Shown here piece after piece: positions 8,992-21,586 of a DNA stretch of 64,000 bases (the first letter of the stretch is position 1; each line of letters opens with the position of its first letter). A program made the position numbers and the translations under genes. The stretch is taken from assembly GCA_016712415.1 (NCBI GenBank), contig JADJRC010000015.1, positions 43,670 to 107,669 on the forward strand, in the 5' to 3' direction. The notes below the pieces were generated by a model. It did not search any database. It saw only the letters and a program-made list of their open reading frames with translations, and had not been told where the DNA came from. Source of the DNA: Lewinellaceae bacterium (GTDB lineage: Bacteria; Bacteroidota; Bacteroidia; Chitinophagales; Saprospiraceae).

Positions 8992-9888
8992 TCAAATATG
9001 CCGTTCAAAACCGGCAAACCACTTTTTCAGCACCGTTTTCTCCGACAGATATTCGAATACGACATAGGAAAAAACGGCAACGGCGGCGCCTGCGATCACA
9101 TCAATCACATAATGGTGCCGCGAATACACCGCTGAAAACCAGATGCCTAATACAAATAGGGTGAACAGGCCGGTCAGCCACGGCTTTTTCAGGCGCAGTC
9201 CGTACAGGAGGCACAATACCGGGTAGGCCGAGTGCAGCGAAGGGATGGCTGCGAATACGTTGGCGTTTTTGCTGTACATGCCTTCAAACAGGCGGATGCC
9301 GAGCAGCCGGTCAAAGTTGATCAGCCCGGCGGCATTGCCCGGTGTACCGTGTATCACCTCAAAACCGTAGACCTCCACATACCAGGGCGGGGCGGCGGGG
9401 TAGAGGTAGTAAATGCAAAAGCCCACGAGATTGGTAAAAACAAACGCGTACGAAAACTTCAGGAAGAGTATTTTATCGTTGCGCAGCAACCAAAAAGCAA
9501 AAAGGAGCGGCACCGGTACCCAGTTCAGGTAAAACAGTCCGCTCGCAATATCACAGAACGGCGTGTGGTTGATCTTGAAGTACTCGTTCAGGGTGAGCAC
9601 CCCTTCCGGCAAGTGGAGGCCAAACCACGCTTTTTCGAGGTAATACGGCTCTGCTACATGAATGGGGTTTACTTCGTAATTGGGCAACACGCGCATCGAA
9701 TCGTATATGATCCAGTAGGCGATAAACACGCCGAAAGCCAGCACAAAACGCCGGGTGGTTTGGTGGGTATAGTACAACGCCAGCGCAAACACATACAAAT
9801 AAACGTGCTCGCTTCGCAATCCTACAAAAAAGTAAAACCAGGAAAAATATGCTGCTGTGCCGGCGAGAAGCGTCAGAAACTGTTTCAT
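8992..9888 (-). CDS. PAP2-superfamily membrane protein, AUR1/inositol-phosphorylceramide-synthase-like
   Basis: 298 aa, polytopic. PAP2 C2/C3-type motifs PSLHSAYP and SRHHYVIDVIAGA. Last gene of the lipid cluster. Confidence 0.7.
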   Translation of the reverse strand: MKQFLTLLAGTAAYFSWFYFFVGLRSEHVYLYVFALALYYTHQTTRRFVLAFGVFIAYWIIYDSMRVLPNYEVNPIHVAEPYYLEKAWFGLHLPEGVLTLNEYFKINHTPFCDIASGLFYLNWVPVPLLFAFWLLRNDKILFLKFSYAFVFTNLVGFCIYYLYPAAPPWYVEVYGFEVIHGTPGNAAGLINFDRLLGIRLFEGMYSKNANVFAAIPSLHSAYPVLCLLYGLRLKKPWLTGLFTLFVLGIWFSAVYSRHHYVIDVIAGAAVAVFSYVVFEYLSEKTVLKKWFAGFERHI

Positions 9889-9909
9889 GGAAATGTTTCG
9901 ATGCTTTCC

Positions 9910-10444
9910 TTAGGGTATGAATTTTTCGTAGACGGCTGTGCCGGTAGAGGGATCTTTGCCGAAAAGTTCGACGTATTCCACTTTGGGGGTCAGGGTAAAG
10001 GTGGTGCCTTTGTCAATTTTTACAAAAACCTTCTGAAGCGCCATTTTTTTGTTGTTGATCTCGATGAGGACGTAAGGTTTGCCTTTTTCATCGAATTTCA
10101 GGCGCAACTTTTTTTTGGAATAGCTGACAAGGTGAAATTCGTATTCATTGCTGCCTTCTACTTTTTTGGCTTTTACGCCATAGGCGAAGGTGCGTTGAAG
10201 GTAGTTCAGCCCGGCTGTGCTGCCGTCTTCGGCGTATCTGATCCAGTAAATATTGATGGGTTTGTCTTTCTGAAAAGCTTTGCCTTCTACGTTGGCATCG
10301 TATACGATCGTATTGGTGTTGCCGGTACGCTGGATATAAAAAAAGACGGTTCAGGCCGTCAGGTGGGGTCGGGTAGGAATCCTGGGCAAAAATTGCGCCT
10401 GCGGAAAACAGGGTCAGCAGCAGGATGGAAAAGCATTTATTCAT
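9910..10444 (-). CDS. small secreted protein (from memory DUF4833-like), interrupted by a 1-bp indel in an A7/T7 run
   Basis: ORF 10145..10444 gives the signal peptide MNKCFSILLLTLFSAGAIFAQDSYPTPPDGLNRLF. Removing one base from the homopolymer at 10338-10344 joins it to the frame ending at 9910 (YIQRTGNTNTIVYDANVEGKAFQKDKPINIYWIRYAEDG...VYEKFIP). Confidence 0.55.
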
Positions 10445-10450
10445 GAATCA

Positions 10451-18511: not shown

Positions 18512-19633
18512 TCAAAGTTCCTTTTCATAAAGCCGGTACCTGCGGTAAACTTTCCCGCCAATATGGCCCAGCGCACGGTTCATCATCTCGTTGTGTTCCA
18601 GTATCCACGAGGCTTCGCCGCGTTTAATGCCTTTTCTGCGAGATGTCAGGATGATCCGCACGTAGAAGCACACATCGATTCCCAGCCGCCGGTATTCCTT
18701 GAGCGTACCGAGTGCAAGAATGCGGATGCTTTTAATTTTTTTCAACCCCAGCAACAGTTTGACGATGCCGAATGGAAAGAGCCGCCCGCGTTTGAGTTTG
18801 ATCTGTATCTCGTTGACGTTGGGGATGGTGAGCGAAACGCCGATCACCTTGCCGTCTTTTTCCGCAAACAGGATGTAGTCCGGATCGATTACAGGCTTCA
18901 AGTCCTTGCCGATCTGCTTGATTTCTGCCTCTGTCATCGGTACGAAGCCGGTATTTTCGGTCCAGGAAACATTGTACACCGGCAGAAATTTCTCGATTTC
19001 CGCTTTGTAGTTTTTCATGTCGATATTCCGGATCGTGATGCCGCGTTCGGCGAGCCGGGCTTCCAGTTTTTCGGCAAATTGCACGACCTCTTCCGTCATG
19101 TTTTCATCGCGCATCTCATAGCACAACAGGTCGGCAAATTTCCGGAAGCCGTATTGTTCTACCAGATCGTTGTAATACCTGAAGTTGTAGGGATTCATGA
19201 CAAATGCCGGCTCGTCGAAGTTTTCCACCAGCATGCCTACCACCTCGTTGGTTGAAAAATTGGCGGGGCCCGTCATCTTGGTCAGGCCTTCGCTGCGCAA
19301 CCAGTCTGCGACAGTATCAAAAAGCGCTTTTGTCACATCGTAATCATCCACGACGTCAAAAAAGCCGAAAAAGCCTTCCTGACGACCAGAAAAAGCGATG
19401 TGGTTGTTGTTCCGGATCGCGGCGATCCGGCCCGCGAGTTTGCCGTCTTTTTTTGCCAGAAAATATGCCGCTTTTGAATGCTGCAGGAACGGCGACTTTT
19501 TCGGATTAAGCAATGCCTCCTGCTCCATGTAGAGCATGGGGACATAATTGGAATCTCCGGCATACAGATCATGCGGGAAGTCGATGAATTGTTGCAGTTG
19601 GCGCTTGTTGCCGACTTTGATGATCTCGATCAT
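18512..19633 (-). CDS. GNAT-fold acyltransferase-like protein (candidate bacterial ceramide synthase)
   Basis: 373 aa. The C-terminal half has a GNAT-like acyl-CoA motif (LKEYRRLGIDVCFY). The call rests largely on its position between spt and the SDR. Confidence 0.55.
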   Translation of the reverse strand: MIEIIKVGNKRQLQQFIDFPHDLYAGDSNYVPMLYMEQEALLNPKKSPFLQHSKAAYFLAKKDGKLAGRIAAIRNNNHIAFSGRQEGFFGFFDVVDDYDVTKALFDTVADWLRSEGLTKMTGPANFSTNEVVGMLVENFDEPAFVMNPYNFRYYNDLVEQYGFRKFADLLCYEMRDENMTEEVVQFAEKLEARLAERGITIRNIDMKNYKAEIEKFLPVYNVSWTENTGFVPMTEAEIKQIGKDLKPVIDPDYILFAEKDGKVIGVSLTIPNVNEIQIKLKRGRLFPFGIVKLLLGLKKIKSIRILALGTLKEYRRLGIDVCFYVRIILTSRRKGIKRGEASWILEHNEMMNRALGHIGGKVYRRYRLYEKEL

Positions 19634-19674
19634 GCGCGTCGCAGGTGGTTAAGTATTTGACTTTCAGAAGCGTG

Positions 19675-21586
19675 TTATTGCACCGGCGTGAGGTGGCCGG
19701 TCTCCACCGCTTCTTCCTCCTGATTGCCCAGAATGCCGAGTTTCACGGCGACCTCGTACATGCGGTCGATAGCGCGGTCAATTTGTTCGATCGTATGGGT
19801 GGCCATGAGCGAGAAACGAATCAGCGACTCTTCGCTCGGTACTGCAGGTGATACGACGGGATTGATGAAAACACCCGCTTCAAAACACCCGGTGGAGAAG
19901 GCGAAGGTTTTAATGTTGTCGCGTACGTAGATCGGGATGATGGGTGATTCGCTGGGACCCACTTCAAAACCCATTTCGAGGAAACGGGCAAGGGCGTAGT
20001 TGGTATTTTCCCAGAGGCGGTTGATGCGGTCGGGTTCGCTTTTAATGATGTCGATGGCGGCAATCACACTGGCCGCAGATGCCGGCGTCATGCTGGCGCT
20101 AAAAAATAAGGGCCCGCGACGTGTGCTTGAGGTAATCGATCACATCGTAGCTGGCTGCTACAAATCCACCGAGCGAAGCAAGTGATTTGCTGAATGTGCC
20201 GGTCTGAATGTCTACCTTATCCTGCAAACCGAAATGAGAACCTGTTCCGATCCCCATTTCTCCGATCACACCGATAGCGTGGGCATCGTCGACTACGACT
20301 ACGCCATTGTGTTTTTCTGCAACGCGCACGATCTCGGGCAGATTGGCGATATCGCCTTCCATGCTGAATATGCCGTCGACAATTATATATTTCAGGGAAT
20401 CGGCCTCCGGCCGCATGATCTGCTTTTCCAGGTCTTCCATGTCGTTATGCTTGAATTTCAGCACTTTGGCAAACGACAGGCGGGTGGCGTCGATGATCGA
20501 GGCGTGTACGCGCTCATCGATCAGGATAGTGTCGTGCCGACCGGCGAGGGGCGCTATGCCGCCCAGGTTGGACTGGAAACCGGTGCTGTACAGGAGTACG
20601 GCCTCCTGTTTCAGGTAATCGGCCAGAATCTCCTCCAGTTCGATATGGATACGCAGCGTTCCGTTGAGAAAACGCGAGCCGGCACAGCCTGTGCCATAAC
20701 GGGTTGTAGCCTCAATCGCCGCTTCTTTGATCTTGGGGTGGTTGGTCAGGCCGAGATAGGAGTTGGAGCCAAACATCAGGACGGGTCTGCCGTCGATGAT
20801 CACTTCGGTATCCTGTTCCGATTCAATGACGCGGAAATAGGGATACATGCCCATGGCACGCACTTCATTGGGGGCGGTATATTTCCGTACGCGTTCGAGT
20901 AGTCTGTTGTTCATGCGCAGTTGATTTACGAATTGTTCAAAATGAAGTGTTTTACTGCTTTTTTGAGTCAGATTAAAGGTAGTATTAAAAACATAGTCCC
21001 AAAACGGATTGCTCACACCATACCCGCGGTCGTGTTGCTGGTAATGGTGCAGCATGTGGTGTTGTTTGATGCGCAGCCAGAAGGGGTGGTTCCAGCGGAG
21101 GTGGTGCATGGCAAAATGCATCATGTCGTAGCAGAGGTATCCGAGCAAAAAACCTGCAAAGAAAGGATATACTGCCGGTTCGCCGATGAGTACTCTGAAT
21201 CCGGTATAAAAAATAATGGCCAGCGGAACGCTAACACTGGGCGGCATTACCAGGCGGAGCTTGTCGTTGGGGTAGTCGTGGTGAACGCCGTGCCAGATGA
21301 AGTGCAGGCGCTTGCCCAGATTGCCCGGCGGCACCCAGTGAAAAACAAAACGGTGCAGCGTGTACTCCGTAAAGGACCATATGAACAGTCCGCCCAGAAA
21401 CAAACCCGTCTGGGACAAAAAACTGCCTTGTGCACGCCAAAGGCACCAGGCCATAATGGGCAGGTAGATGATGAGCGGCACTGAGAAGTGCACTTTTGAT
21501 AGTGCTTCCATCCAGTTGGCTTTAAACATCCTGGTAGAGTCAGCCGAACTGGAAACGAAATGTTGCTGATATTCTTTAGCTGCCAT
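19675..21586 (-). CDS. spt: fusion of a fatty-acid 2-hydroxylase-like domain and serine palmitoyltransferase (alpha-oxoamine synthase), with a 1-bp frameshift in the A6 run at 20101-20106
   Basis: N-terminal about 200 aa has His boxes [34 protein letters not shown] and HHMLHH (FA2H/Scs7 pattern). The rest is AONS/SPT-like with the PLP lysine in [12 protein letters not shown]. ...RALIF* becomes [22 protein letters not shown] when one T is removed, which joins ORF 20099..21586 to 19675..20091. Confidence 0.85.

What the first reader, a model, noticed from the sequence alone, without database searches (positions are those of the whole stretch)
8992..21586. One co-directional supercluster links ceramide backbone synthesis to inositol-phosphate head-group synthesis
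Seen in the sequence:
- Eleven minus-strand genes lie with tiny gaps or overlaps (0-bp junction at 18511/18512, 4-bp overlap at 14559-14562, 29-bp overlap at 14992-15020).
- In order they are: the FA2H::SPT fusion, a GNAT-like acyltransferase, an SDR, a DEGS-like desaturase, MIPS, a PgpA-like phosphatase, a GtrA-like protein, a DUF5686-like OMP, a CDP-alcohol phosphatidyltransferase, a small secreted protein and a PAP2/AUR1-like protein.

Established knowledge, as far as I recall it:
- In Bacteroides thetaiotaomicron the inositol-lipid locus comprises MIPS, a CDP-alcohol-type PIP synthase, a PgpA-type PIP phosphatase and a PAP2-like putative inositol-phosphorylceramide synthase.
- Bacterial ceramide synthesis (Caulobacter work) uses Spt, a GNAT-like ceramide synthase and an epimerase-like reductase.
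- I believe these two gene sets are usually dispersed.

Inference: this locus would encode a complete route to inositol-phosphoryl-ceramide, decorated by two eukaryote-like tailoring enzymes (2-hydroxylase and delta-4 desaturase). The GtrA-like and OMP genes might serve further head-group modification or export.
Basis: partly seen in the sequence, partly recalled or inferred. Interest (0 to 1): 0.75.

Follow-up and report, generated by a model that had tools for sequence, protein, structure and literature searches.

The report
Bacterial ceramide plus inositol-lipid gene cluster
A Saprospiraceae-like bacterium carries twelve adjacent genes that together look able to build a yeast-like inositol-phosphoceramide membrane lipid, but the reported "fused" enzyme and the broken genes in this copy are most likely sequencing errors.

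Summary
SPT passes NCBI's curated serine-palmitoyltransferase (CFB) cut-off. The CDP-alcohol transferase passes the BT_1523 PIP-synthase cut-off. MIPS is very close to PDB 7NWR. The PAP2 protein matches only the PI-dihydroceramide-synthase model and yeast AUR1. The GNAT-like protein is a full-length homologue of E. coli YghO, the orthologue of Caulobacter ceramide synthase CC_1154.

The FA2H::SPT fusion is not real biology. It comes from one missing A in an A7 run. This is private to the window and absent from 5 near-identical contigs and from 13 more distant loci that carry both genes. There the hydroxylase (about 211 aa) and SPT (about 412 aa) are separate genes, so the cluster has twelve genes.

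Six further private indels break SPT, MIPS, DUF5686 (three times) and DUF4833. Similar frameshifts hit housekeeping ahcY and other genes elsewhere in the window. Substitutions are mostly synonymous. Assembly error is therefore the likely cause.

The linked ceramide plus inositol locus is conserved in several Saprospiraceae/Lewinellaceae MAGs and in one rearranged metagenome contig, but not in Cytophagales. I found no paper describing it. It is a new arrangement of known enzymes and of moderate interest.

The parts
20952..21586 (-). Fatty-acid/ceramide 2-hydroxylase-like gene (FAH, 211 aa when intact). It has no cytochrome b5 domain. Its own stop codon at 20952-20954 is thrown out of frame in the window by a missing A at about 20965 (A7 to A6).
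   Evidence: Pfam FA_hydroxylase, 69.7 bits. Yeast Scs7p 4ZR1, E=1.5e-35, is the only meaningful PDB hit, with the His motifs aligned. It is a separate 207-229 aa ORF in all 19 loci that carry both genes. Indel mapped.
19675..20914 (-). Serine palmitoyltransferase (SPT, 412 aa when intact). It is split in the window by an extra T at about 20106 (T5 to T6).
   Evidence: NCBIfam NF047600 SerpalmtaseCFB, 646.1 bits against cut-off 640. PDB 3A2B/8GUH SPT, 522 bits, E=1e-155. Frameshift seen.
18512..19633 (-). bCerS-type ceramide synthase candidate (YghO/CC_1154 family N-acyltransferase, 373 aa, intact).
   Evidence: 36% identity over the full length to E. coli YghO, E=3e-78. PMC9386255 lists yghO as the orthologue of Caulobacter CC_1154, which is required for dihydroceramide synthesis. 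E. coli yghO lies next to aasR-epi-acpR-spt. Weak Pfam GNAT hit.
17525..18511 (-). CerR-type NAD-dependent epimerase/dehydratase-family reductase (328 aa, intact). It has a 0-bp junction with bCerS.
   Evidence: Pfam Epimerase, 106.9 bits. 27% identity over the full length, E=7e-31, to the E. coli 'epi' gene of the spt cluster.
16396..17442 (-). DEGS-like sphingolipid delta-4 desaturase / C4-monooxygenase homologue (348 aa, intact). The likely start is ATG 17442, not GTG 17622.
   Evidence: Pfam Lipid_DES 46.7 bits and FA_desaturase 93.6 bits. Three His boxes are invariant in 15 homologues. Start codon taken from the gene calls.
14992..16348 (-). myo-Inositol-phosphate synthase (MIPS, 451 aa when intact). 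It is split in the window by an extra C at about 15344.
   Evidence: Pfam NAD_binding_5 277 bits and Inos-1-P_synth. PDB 7NWR, 557.7 bits, E=2e-166. Frameshift seen.
14559..15020 (-). PgpA-family phosphatase (153 aa, intact), a candidate PIP phosphatase like BT_1525. It overlaps the MIPS gene by 29 bp.
   Evidence: Pfam PgpA, 139.6 bits. Same position after MIPS as in the B. thetaiotaomicron cluster (PMC9246714).
14137..14520 (-). GtrA-family small membrane protein (127 aa from ATG 14520, or 141 aa from GTG 14562), the counterpart of BT_1524.
   Evidence: Pfam GtrA_DPMS_TM, 59.8 bits. BT_1524 has a GtrA motif and its knockout has no lipid phenotype.
11318..13888 (-). DUF5686 outer-membrane-type protein with an N-terminal CarboxypepD_reg domain (856 aa when intact). 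It is broken into three ORFs in the window by indels at 13871, 12427 and 11595-11596.
   Evidence: Pfam DUF5686 and CarbopepD_reg_2 on the fragments. Intact 856-aa gene in L001-L003. Indels mapped. It accompanies the ceramide genes even without the inositol genes.
10451..11155 (-). Phosphatidylinositol-phosphate synthase (CDP-alcohol phosphatidyltransferase, 234 aa, intact).
   Evidence: NCBIfam NF052561 PIPSynBT1523, 351.6 bits against cut-off 350. Best PDB hits are mycobacterial PIP synthases 6WM5 and 6H53.
9910..10444 (-). DUF4833 secreted protein (177 aa when intact). It is split in the window by an extra T at about 10344 (T6 to T7).
   Evidence: PF16117 on the intact allele. The family is small, with 316 hits. 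The AlphaFold model is confident (pLDDT 88), all-beta, and has no significant PDB fold match.
8992..9888 (-). AUR1-like PAP2_3 protein (298 aa, intact), a candidate inositol-phosphoceramide (PI-dihydroceramide) synthase.
   Evidence: Pfam PAP2_3, 85.1 bits. NCBIfam NF052609 PhinosDhcerSyn is the only hit: 321.5 bits, full length, below cut-off 480. The only PDB hits are yeast AUR1 9VJ3/9IVC, E=4.5e-21, with the PSLHS and HHY..D motifs aligned.
11156..11317 (-). 162-nt spacer before PIPS. It holds two matches to the Bacteroidota -7 promoter motif TAnnTTTG, at 11275 and 11200. This is a possible internal promoter.
   Evidence: About 0.05 matches are expected in 162 nt from the window-wide rate of 0.31 per kb. 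This is a motif match only, not evidence of function.

Best explanation
The region is a conserved, operon-like 12-gene locus of an uncultured Saprospiraceae/Lewinellaceae-type Bacteroidota bacterium. It encodes a complete route to inositol-phosphoceramide.

Proposed route (every step is inferred from homology and context; none is shown biochemically here):
1. SPT condenses serine with acyl-CoA.
2. The YghO/CC_1154-type N-acyltransferase (bCerS) and the epimerase-family reductase (CerR) turn the 3-keto base into dihydroceramide.
3. The DEGS-like di-iron enzyme desaturates (or hydroxylates) C4 of the long-chain base.
4. The Scs7/FA2H-like di-iron enzyme 2-hydroxylates the N-acyl chain.
5. MIPS makes inositol phosphate.
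6. The BT_1523-type synthase makes PIP-diacylglycerol from CDP-diacylglycerol.
7. The PgpA-type phosphatase makes PI.
8. The AUR1-like PAP2 enzyme transfers inositol phosphate from PI to the ceramide.

GtrA, DUF5686 (outer-membrane type) and DUF4833 (secreted) are conserved passengers of unknown role, possibly sphingolipid export or placement.

The apparent FA2H::SPT fusion, and the disruptions of SPT, MIPS, DUF5686 and DUF4833 in this window, are base-calling or assembly indel errors. They are not features of the organism.
For: Enzyme identities:
- SPT passes the curated SPT-CFB equivalog cut-off, and PIPS passes the BT_1523 equivalog cut-off. PAP2's only hit is the PI-DHC-synthase model.
- PDB matches: Scs7p E=1.5e-35, AUR1 E=4.5e-21, Sphingobacterium SPT 522 bits, MIPS 7NWR 557.7 bits.
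- DES carries the DEGS-specific Lipid_DES domain and invariant His boxes.
- bCerS is 36% identical (E=3e-78) to E. coli YghO, the orthologue of CC_1154. CerR gives E=7e-31 to the E. coli 'epi' gene.

Gene order:
- MIPS-PgpA-GtrA-(DUF5686)-PIPS-(DUF4833)-PAP2 mirrors BT_1526 to BT_1522.

Conservation:
- The full 12-gene co-directional set is present in L007-L012.
- L013, L018 and L058 keep most of the set, but each lacks hits for some genes (FAH and bCerS in L013 and L018; PIPS, DUF4833 and PAP2 in L058). In L012, L013, L018 and L058 DES precedes CerR. Protein identity falls to about 45-60%.
- A rearranged version without DES is present in L090.

Artefact reading:
- All 7 frameshifting indels are private to the window, against up to 6 independent assemblies.
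- Five of them change the length of a base run of 3 or more: A7 to A6, T5 to T6, T6 to T7, G3 to G2, and outside the cluster A7 to A8.
- FAH and SPT are separate ORFs in all 19 loci that hold both, and the fused product is unrecorded.
- Substitutions against L001 in the 12 genes are 25 synonymous, 6 non-synonymous and 0 nonsense. The broken SPT, MIPS, FAH and DUF4833 carry synonymous changes only.
- Frameshifts also hit genes outside the cluster. These include housekeeping ahcY (at least 2), a TonB-dependent-like OMP and a 454-aa gene.
Against: - No transcript, lipid or enzyme data exist for this organism.
- PAP2 scores below the NCBIfam equivalog cut-off (321.5 against 480), so its acceptor and donor specificity is not established.
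- CerR is only a family-level match. Bacteroides uses a different reductase (BT_0972).
- DEGS-family enzymes can be desaturases or C4-hydroxylases.
- No electron donor (cytochrome b5 or ferredoxin) for the two di-iron enzymes lies in the cluster.
- Two larger spacers (248 and 162 nt), the second with promoter-like motifs, mean the cluster may be more than one transcription unit.
- Two of the indels (15344 and 11595-6) are not in homopolymers. Without reads, I cannot formally exclude that they are real in this strain.
- Related loci keep PgpA-GtrA-DUF5686 without MIPS, PIPS or PAP2. PgpA may therefore not be dedicated to PIP.
Confidence: 0.8

Rival explanations
1. The indels are real. This strain carries a genuine FA2H::SPT fusion reading frame and a decaying (pseudogenised or phase-varied) lipid cluster.
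For: The window sequence as given contains them. Homopolymer tracts are also natural slippage hot spots. Two of the indels are not in homopolymers.
Against: - Even in the window, the 'fusion' ORF is cut inside SPT by the next frameshift, so no full-length fused enzyme is encoded.
- All the indels are private to the window.
- There are no nonsense changes, and only synonymous changes occur in the broken SPT, MIPS, FAH and DUF4833 genes.
- Housekeeping ahcY and other genes unrelated to the cluster are frameshifted too.
- The fused product is absent from a collection of 153 billion gene positions.
Confidence: 0.07
2. The locus is real and functional, but the end product is not inositol-phosphoceramide. 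The inositol half might make only phosphatidylinositol or capsule inositol. The PAP2 protein might use another donor or acceptor. The ceramide might receive a different head group.
For: - PAP2 is below the curated equivalog cut-off.
- Sister loci keep the ceramide genes with PgpA-GtrA-DUF5686 but lack MIPS, PIPS and PAP2. The ceramide module therefore works with other head groups in relatives.
- Heaver et al. found inositol in the B. thetaiotaomicron capsule as well.
Against: - PAP2's only family-level and structure-database matches are PI-DHC synthase and AUR1, with the catalytic His/Asp motifs aligned.
- In the loci examined here, a PAP2 hit is present wherever PIPS and MIPS hits are both present (L001-L003, L007-L013, L015, L018, L090) and absent from L032, L037, L065 and L067, which lack MIPS and PIPS.
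- Deletion of the B. thetaiotaomicron orthologue abolishes PI-dihydroceramide specifically.
Confidence: 0.12
3. The adjacency of the ceramide and inositol modules is a chance juxtaposition with no functional coupling.
For: The modules are separate in Bacteroides. In Cytophagales the DES homologue stands alone. The spacers flanking DUF5686 could separate transcription units.
Against: The adjacency, orientation and near-identical order persist across loci with 45-90% protein identity. They also appear in a differently ordered locus, L090. Most junctions are 47 nt or less, or overlap.
Confidence: 0.03

Closest known systems
Bacteroides thetaiotaomicron inositol-lipid cluster BT_1522-BT_1526 (Heaver et al. 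2022, PMC9246714)
   Same: - Same five families in the same order: MIPS, PgpA-type PIP phosphatase, GtrA-motif protein, PIP synthase, AUR1-like PI-dihydroceramide synthase.
- PIPS passes the BT_1523 equivalog model.
- MIPS scores 557.7 bits to PDB 7NWR.
   Different: - Here DUF5686 is inserted before PIPS and DUF4833 before PAP2.
- The PAP2 protein is below the equivalog cut-off.
- The whole module is fused co-directionally to the ceramide genes, which in B. thetaiotaomicron lie elsewhere (SPT is BT_0870, KDSR is BT_0972).
Proteobacterial ceramide gene set: Caulobacter CC_1154/1162-1165 and E. coli BL21 yghO-aasR-epi-acpR-spt (Olea-Ozuna 2021 and Stankeviciute 2022, as cited in PMC9386255)
   Same: - SPT, a YghO/CC_1154-type N-acyltransferase and an epimerase-family reductase are clustered.
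- The N-acyltransferase and the reductase are clear homologues (E=3e-78 and E=7e-31).
   Different: - There is no dedicated ACP (AcpR) or acyl-ACP synthetase (AasR) here.
- SPT is of the CFB type, which is reported to use acyl-CoA.
- No LptF/G paralogues are present. DUF5686 and DUF4833 accompany the genes instead.
Yeast IPC pathway enzymes Aur1 (IPC synthase), Scs7 (ceramide 2-hydroxylase) and eukaryotic DEGS1 (dihydroceramide delta-4 desaturase)
   Same: - AUR1-like PAP2 with the catalytic motifs aligned.
- Scs7-like hydroxylase domain with His motifs.
- DEGS-type Lipid_DES and FA_desaturase domains.
   Different: - The hydroxylase has no cytochrome b5 domain.
- No Kei1-like subunit was identified.
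- The genes are bacterial, chromosomally clustered and 26-35% identical at most.
- The activity of the bacterial DES homologue is untested.
Myxobacterial FA2H orthologues (Ring et al. 2009, as cited in PMC10002949)
   Same: A stand-alone bacterial homologue of eukaryotic FA2H, linked to sphingolipid formation.
   Different: The phylum is different. Here the gene sits directly upstream of SPT in a larger lipid locus. Its stereochemistry and substrate are unknown.

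Membership tests
Serine palmitoyltransferase (CFB type) | Scores at or above the curated equivalog cut-off and clearly above BioF/Kbl/ALAS | tested here: met
   NF047600 gives 646.1 bits against cut-off 640. The BioF/Kbl models give 376-400 bits, all below their cut-offs. PDB SPT 3A2B gives 522 bits, against 285 or less for KBL/BioF. The test was run on the intact allele (L001). The window copy carries one frameshift.
FA2H::SPT fusion protein (as claimed) | One continuous reading frame joining both domains, reproducible in independent sequences | tested here: not met
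   The two are separate ORFs in different frames in all 19 loci that have both. The window frame is joined only by an A7 to A6 change. The fused product is unrecorded.
Bacterial ceramide synthase bCerS (CC_1154 / YghO family) | Full-length homology to a family member shown to be required for dihydroceramide synthesis, or to its stated orthologue | tested here: met
   36% identity, E=3e-78, 373 of 380 residues aligned to E. coli YghO. YghO is listed as the orthologue of CC_1154 in PMC9386255. I could not compare directly with the Caulobacter sequence.
CerR (epimerase-family ceramide reductase) | Extended-SDR/epimerase fold, homology to the reductase of proteobacterial spt clusters, adjacency to SPT and bCerS | tested here: met
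   Pfam Epimerase, 106.9 bits. 27% identity, E=7e-31 to E. coli 'epi'. 0-bp junction with bCerS. Its substrate (3-keto base or oxo-ceramide) cannot be tested here.
DEGS-type sphingolipid delta-4 desaturase | N-terminal Lipid_DES domain plus FA_desaturase domain with three His boxes | tested here: met
   PF08557 gives 46.7 bits and PF00487 gives 93.6 bits. HxxxH, HxxHH and HxxHH are invariant in 15 sequences. Whether the activity is desaturase or C4-hydroxylase cannot be tested with these tools.
FA2H/Scs7 fatty-acid 2-hydroxylase | Di-iron hydroxylase domain with conserved His motifs | tested here: met
   Scs7p 4ZR1, E=1.5e-35, residues 20-203 aligned, with the HRFxFH, HGxHH, HxxxHH and HHxxHH motifs.
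FA2H/Scs7 fatty-acid 2-hydroxylase | N-terminal cytochrome b5 domain (eukaryotic members) | tested here: not met
   The 211-aa protein aligns only to the hydroxylase domain, and Pfam finds no Cyt-b5. Bacterial members lack the b5 domain by my recollection of Ring et al. 2009; I did not check this here.
Bacteroides-type inositol-lipid cluster | MIPS orthologue | tested here: met
   PDB 7NWR, 557.7 bits, E=2e-166. Pfam gives 277 bits. The window copy carries one frameshift.
Bacteroides-type inositol-lipid cluster | BT_1523-type PIP synthase | tested here: met
   NF052561 gives 351.6 bits against cut-off 350.
Bacteroides-type inositol-lipid cluster | PgpA-family phosphatase and GtrA-motif protein between MIPS and PIPS | tested here: met
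   Pfam PgpA 139.6 bits and GtrA 59.8 bits. Order as in BT_1526 to BT_1523. PIP-phosphatase activity was not tested.
Bacteroides-type inositol-lipid cluster | PI-dihydroceramide synthase (BT_1522 equivalog) | tested here: inconclusive
   NF052609 is the only hit and covers the full length, but at 321.5 bits is below cut-off 480. AUR1 gives E=4.5e-21.
Single operon | Co-transcription of all twelve genes | not testable with these tools
   Most junctions are 82 nt or less, or overlap. Two spacers of 248 and 162 nt flank DUF5686, the second with TAnnTTTG motifs.

The most novel reading that the evidence does not exclude
Environmental Saprospiraceae-type bacteria make a eukaryote-style inositol-phosphoceramide, with a 4-unsaturated (or 4-hydroxylated) long-chain base and a 2-hydroxy acyl chain, from one portable 12-gene locus. 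The locus contains functional bacterial counterparts of DEGS1, FA2H/Scs7 and Aur1. The conserved DUF5686 outer-membrane protein and the DUF4833 secreted protein form a previously unrecognised system that moves or anchors sphingolipid in the outer membrane, replacing the LptF/G paralogues used by Caulobacter.
Probability: 0.25. Interest if true: 0.7.

Novelty: new variant of a known kind. Interest (0 to 1): 0.45.

Why it matters
If the intact locus works as predicted, it is a compact natural cassette for a complete inositol-phosphoceramide pathway, including the two oxygen-dependent tailoring steps known mainly from eukaryotes.

- **Testable genetics.** One cloned fragment would make bacterial IPC synthesis, the untested bacterial DEGS-like enzyme, and the order of the acylation and reduction steps directly testable in a heterologous host.
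- **New candidates.** The locus nominates two proteins of unknown function (DUF5686 and DUF4833) as sphingolipid-associated.
- **Wider distribution.** It extends inositol sphingolipids from gut Bacteroides to abundant environmental Bacteroidota.
- **Caution for the scan.** An eye-catching 'fusion' and several 'pseudogenes' in this window are homopolymer-type assembly errors.

Tried and rejected
- **Fusion as real:** rejected.
- **Cluster-specific pseudogenisation:** rejected as the main reading, because frameshifts also hit ahcY, an OMP and other genes, and substitutions are overwhelmingly synonymous.
- **Finding the window's own contig:** exact look-up of the fused product and of another window protein found nothing on record.
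- **Rfam scan of the window:** no hits.
- **Sigma-70 promoter scan:** no more hits than in shuffles, and not appropriate for Bacteroidota. The terminator scan gave no convincing site in the spacers.
- **Direct comparison with Caulobacter bCerS or B. thetaiotaomicron BT_1522:** the sequences were not obtainable. The Stankeviciute 2022 paper is not held. I used E. coli YghO and the NCBIfam models instead.
- **DUF4833 tracking PIPS/PAP2 (a Kei1-like partner):** weakened by L089, where DUF4833 sits with the ceramide genes and no inositol genes.
- **Structure route for DUF4833:** the model is confident but has no significant PDB fold match.
- **PDB search for DES:** no hit.
- **Literature searches** for a described Saprospiraceae sphingolipid locus or a characterised bacterial DEGS homologue: nothing found.
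- **Flectobacillus major lipids:** I recall that Batrakov et al. 2000 reported 4E-unsaturated bases and 2-hydroxy acyl chains in F. major sphingolipids, which would fit its DES homologue. I could not verify this in the held papers, so it is a lead only.

Full report
**1. The observation**

ORF listing shows an uninterrupted series of minus-strand reading frames from 8992 to 21586. It is flanked by a topoisomerase IV subunit A gene (21922-24633) and a Band_7 gene (7987-8910).

However, the ORF map also shows genes lying in pieces:
- The C-terminal 138 residues of SPT are in another frame.
- MIPS is in two overlapping frames.
- DUF5686 is in three pieces.
- The 'small secreted protein' turns Arg-rich after about 35 residues.

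**2. The fusion and the frameshifts**

The 373-aa GNAT-like protein is encoded, residue for residue, on 18 contigs read. The six places fetched as loci (L001-L006) include a 768-kb JGI contig (L001). On those contigs gene callers find 12 intact genes, in this order:

| Gene | Length (aa) |
|---|---|
| FA_hydroxylase | 211 |
| SPT | 412 |
| GNAT-like protein | 373 |
| Epimerase | 328 |
| DES | 348 |
| MIPS | 451 |
| PgpA | 153 |
| GtrA | 127 |
| DUF5686 | 856 |
| PIPS | 234 |
| DUF4833 | 177 |
| PAP2_3 | 298 |

The window is 99.6% identical to L001 over 17 kb. Within the cluster it differs by seven frameshifting indels:

| Window position | Change | Effect |
|---|---|---|
| 20965 | A7 to A6 | 13 nt before the hydroxylase stop; shifts it into the SPT frame and creates the 'fusion' |
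| 20106 | T5 to T6 | breaks SPT |
| 15344 | +C | breaks MIPS |
| 13871 | -T | breaks DUF5686 |
| 12427 | G3 to G2 | breaks DUF5686 |
| 11595-6 | +2 | breaks DUF5686 |
| 10344 | T6 to T7 | breaks DUF4833 |

At each site but one (11595-6), every other assembly in which the site could be located carries the intact allele. In all 19 loci that contain both genes, the hydroxylase and SPT are separate ORFs. The fused product is not on record.

Substitutions between the window and L001 in the 12 genes are 25 synonymous, 6 non-synonymous and 0 nonsense. The 'broken' SPT, MIPS, FAH and DUF4833 carry synonymous changes only.

Frameshifts are not confined to the cluster:
- A 454-aa gene is split by A7 to A8 at 28044.
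- The housekeeping S-adenosylhomocysteine hydrolase gene at 42392-43748 needs all three frames to be read.
- A TonB-dependent-like OMP at 39883-42337 is in at least three pieces.

The simplest reading is an indel-prone assembly. The fusion is an artefact. Even in the window it would not yield a full-length fused enzyme, because SPT is cut 860 nt further on.

**3. What the genes are** (tested on the intact alleles)

- **SPT.** It reaches the curated NCBIfam equivalog cut-off for CFB-type serine palmitoyltransferase (646.1 against 640). The BioF, Kbl and BioF/Kbl models score 376-400 bits and fail their cut-offs. Against PDB it scores 522 bits to Sphingobacterium SPT and 285 or less to KBL/BioF.
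- **GNAT-like protein.** It is a full-length homologue of E. coli YghO (36% identity, E=3e-78). In E. coli, yghO lies beside a fatty acyl-AMP ligase, an epimerase-family gene, an ACP and an SPT-like gene. PMC9386255 lists yghO as the orthologue of Caulobacter CC_1154, the N-acyltransferase required for dihydroceramide synthesis. This protein is therefore a bCerS-family member.
- **Epimerase-family protein.** It aligns end to end with the E. coli 'epi' gene of that cluster (27% identity, E=7e-31).
- **Desaturase.** It has the DEGS-specific Lipid_DES domain and three invariant His boxes.
- **Hydroxylase.** It matches only yeast Scs7p in PDB (E=1.5e-35) and lacks a cytochrome b5 domain.
- **MIPS.** It scores 557.7 bits to PDB 7NWR.
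- **PIPS.** It passes the BT_1523 equivalog cut-off (351.6 against 350).
- **PAP2_3 protein.** Its only NCBIfam hit is the phosphoinositol-dihydroceramide synthase model. The hit is full length at 321.5 bits but below the 480 cut-off. Its only PDB hits are yeast AUR1 (E=4.5e-21), with the His/Asp motifs aligned.

**4. Comparison with known systems**

Heaver et al. (PMC9246714) showed the following in B. thetaiotaomicron:
- BT_1526 is MIPS.
- BT_1525 is a PgpA-like PIP phosphatase.
- BT_1524 is a GtrA-motif protein whose knockout has no lipid phenotype.
- BT_1523 is PIP synthase.
- BT_1522 is the AUR1-like PI-dihydroceramide synthase.

The window has the same order, with DUF5686 and DUF4833 inserted. 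In B. thetaiotaomicron, SPT (BT_0870) and the ketosphinganine reductase (BT_0972) are elsewhere and unclustered. In Proteobacteria the five ceramide genes are clustered only in Caulobacter and E. coli BL21.

The window differs from that proteobacterial set in three ways. It lacks the dedicated ACP and acyl-ACP synthetase. It has a CFB-type SPT. It carries no LptF/G paralogues.

**5. Distribution**

The closest homologues of the desaturase are from Saprospiraceae/Lewinellaceae MAGs, followed by Cytophagales.

I examined 80 genome loci chosen by desaturase similarity:
- The full co-directional 12-gene set occurs in L007-L012. L007 is 93% identical in DNA and is a sister species.
- L013 and L018 lack hits to FAH and bCerS. 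L058 lacks hits to PIPS, DUF4833 and PAP2. In L012, L013, L018 and L058, DES precedes CerR.
- L032, L037, L065 and L067 keep FAH-SPT-bCerS-DES-CerR plus PgpA. L032, L065 and L067 also keep DUF5686, and L037, L065 and L067 keep GtrA. All four lack MIPS, PIPS, DUF4833 and PAP2.
- In L013, L067 and, by matching ORF layout, L018 and L032, the cluster lies between recR and lpxC/fabZ, followed in L067 by lpxA.
- Cytophagales (Aquirufa, Arcicella, Flectobacillus, Spirosoma) have the desaturase alone.

Two loci found through DUF4833 add to this:
- L090, a metagenome contig, has SPT-bCerS-CerR-MIPS-PgpA-GtrA-DUF5686-PIPS-DUF4833-FAH-(104 aa)-PAP2.
- L089 has SPT, a 365-aa protein, an epimerase, DUF5686 and DUF4833, with no inositol genes.

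The ceramide-inositol linkage therefore recurs in more than one arrangement. DUF5686 and DUF4833 follow the ceramide genes rather than the inositol genes.

DUF4833 is a small family, with 316 hits. Its confident all-beta model has no significant PDB match.

**6. Mechanism**

Every step below is inferred from homology and context. None is shown biochemically.
1. SPT makes 3-ketosphinganine.
2. bCerS and CerR give dihydroceramide. The order is unknown. PMC9386255 cites the Caulobacter proposal that acylation comes first.
3. The two oxygen-dependent di-iron enzymes modify C4 of the base and C2 of the acyl chain. Their electron donors are not in the cluster.
4. MIPS, PIPS and PgpA make PI through PIP.
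5. The AUR1-like enzyme transfers inositol phosphate to the ceramide.

Junctions are short. In L001 coordinates they are 37, 41, 0, 82, 47, -29, 38, 6 and 21 nt. The exceptions are the 248 and 162 nt spacers around DUF5686. The 162-nt spacer holds two TAnnTTTG motifs, one of them 45 nt upstream of the PIPS start. There may therefore be two or three transcription units.

**7. Verdict**

- The cluster and its pathway reading are supported. The fusion is not.
- The window copy is error-laden.
- I found no paper describing this linked locus or a characterised bacterial DEGS homologue. The library is incomplete, so this is not proof of novelty.
- It is a new arrangement and extension of known systems, of moderate interest.

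Noticed in passing
window 42392-43748 (+): The S-adenosylhomocysteine hydrolase gene (ahcY) can be read only by switching through all three frames within about 300 nt. The first shift is at a C5/A5 run near 42570. A core housekeeping gene is therefore frameshifted at least twice in this window.
   Followed up: yes
window 39883-42337 (-): An outer-membrane protein resembling a TonB-dependent receptor (CarboxypepD_reg N-terminus, OMP_b-brl_3 / TonB_dep_Rec barrel) is split into at least three ORFs.
   Followed up: partly
window 32173-39361 (+): A run of paralogous, Gly-rich secreted proteins ends in similar T9SS-type C-terminal sorting domains (weak Por_Secre_tail hits; a recurring '...NYYRLKQ.D.DG..E.SPIVVADMR' tail). 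Most are fragmented, and the region has 55-58% GC against about 51% elsewhere.
   Followed up: partly
window about 15344 and 11595-11596: The two private indels that are not in homopolymers both create a CCTGG (CCWGG, Dcm-type) site in the window, where the intact allele has GCTGG or GCTGA. I have no explanation. It may be a base-caller or polisher bias.
   Followed up: no
window about 29041 and 25665-25831 (against L001 487-694 and 3904-3966): There are larger structural differences from the near-identical contig. A 208-nt deletion lies inside a DUF1275 gene. A 109-nt insertion plus 2- and 4-nt deletions lie inside a TPR-repeat gene, where identity drops to about 97.7%.
   Followed up: partly
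L013, L018, L032, L067: In L013 and L067 (Pfam-confirmed), and by matching ORF layout in L018 and L032, the sphingolipid cluster sits between recR and the lipid A genes lpxC/fabZ, followed in L067 by lpxA. It is co-directional with the lipid A genes. In the window it sits between topoisomerase IV A and a Band_7 gene instead.
   Followed up: partly
L032, L037, L065, L067 (also L020 in part): These loci keep FAH-SPT-bCerS-DES-CerR and PgpA (plus GtrA and/or DUF5686 in most). They lack MIPS, PIPS, DUF4833 and PAP2. The PgpA-type phosphatase may therefore serve a non-inositol head group there.
   Followed up: partly
L089 (NCBI GCA_963851935.1, contig CAWKQZ010000006.1): The gene order is SPT, a 365-aa protein with no Pfam hit, an epimerase, DUF5686 and DUF4833, with no inositol genes. 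This ties DUF5686 and DUF4833 to the ceramide module.
   Followed up: partly
L058 (JAKLJF010000089.1): A 12-kb contig carrying the Saprospiraceae-type cluster (DES 75% identical) is filed under a Thermoanaerobaculia (Acidobacteriota) MAG. It is probably a mis-binned contig.
   Followed up: no
L088 (Roseomonas mucosa plasmid p1, NZ_CP147881.1): The bCerS/YghO homologue there is flanked by a 'sterol desaturase family' (FA_hydroxylase-type) gene, two LptF/LptG-family permeases, an NTP transferase and a CDP-alcohol phosphatidyltransferase. This is another compact sphingolipid-type locus on a replicon annotated as a plasmid.
   Followed up: no
L003 (JGI 3300056625 contig Ga0558121_20352): A second near-identical assembly has MIPS and PgpA split, and it is intact at the four window indel sites that could be located in it. 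This shows that independent assemblies of this organism each carry their own indel errors.
   Followed up: partly
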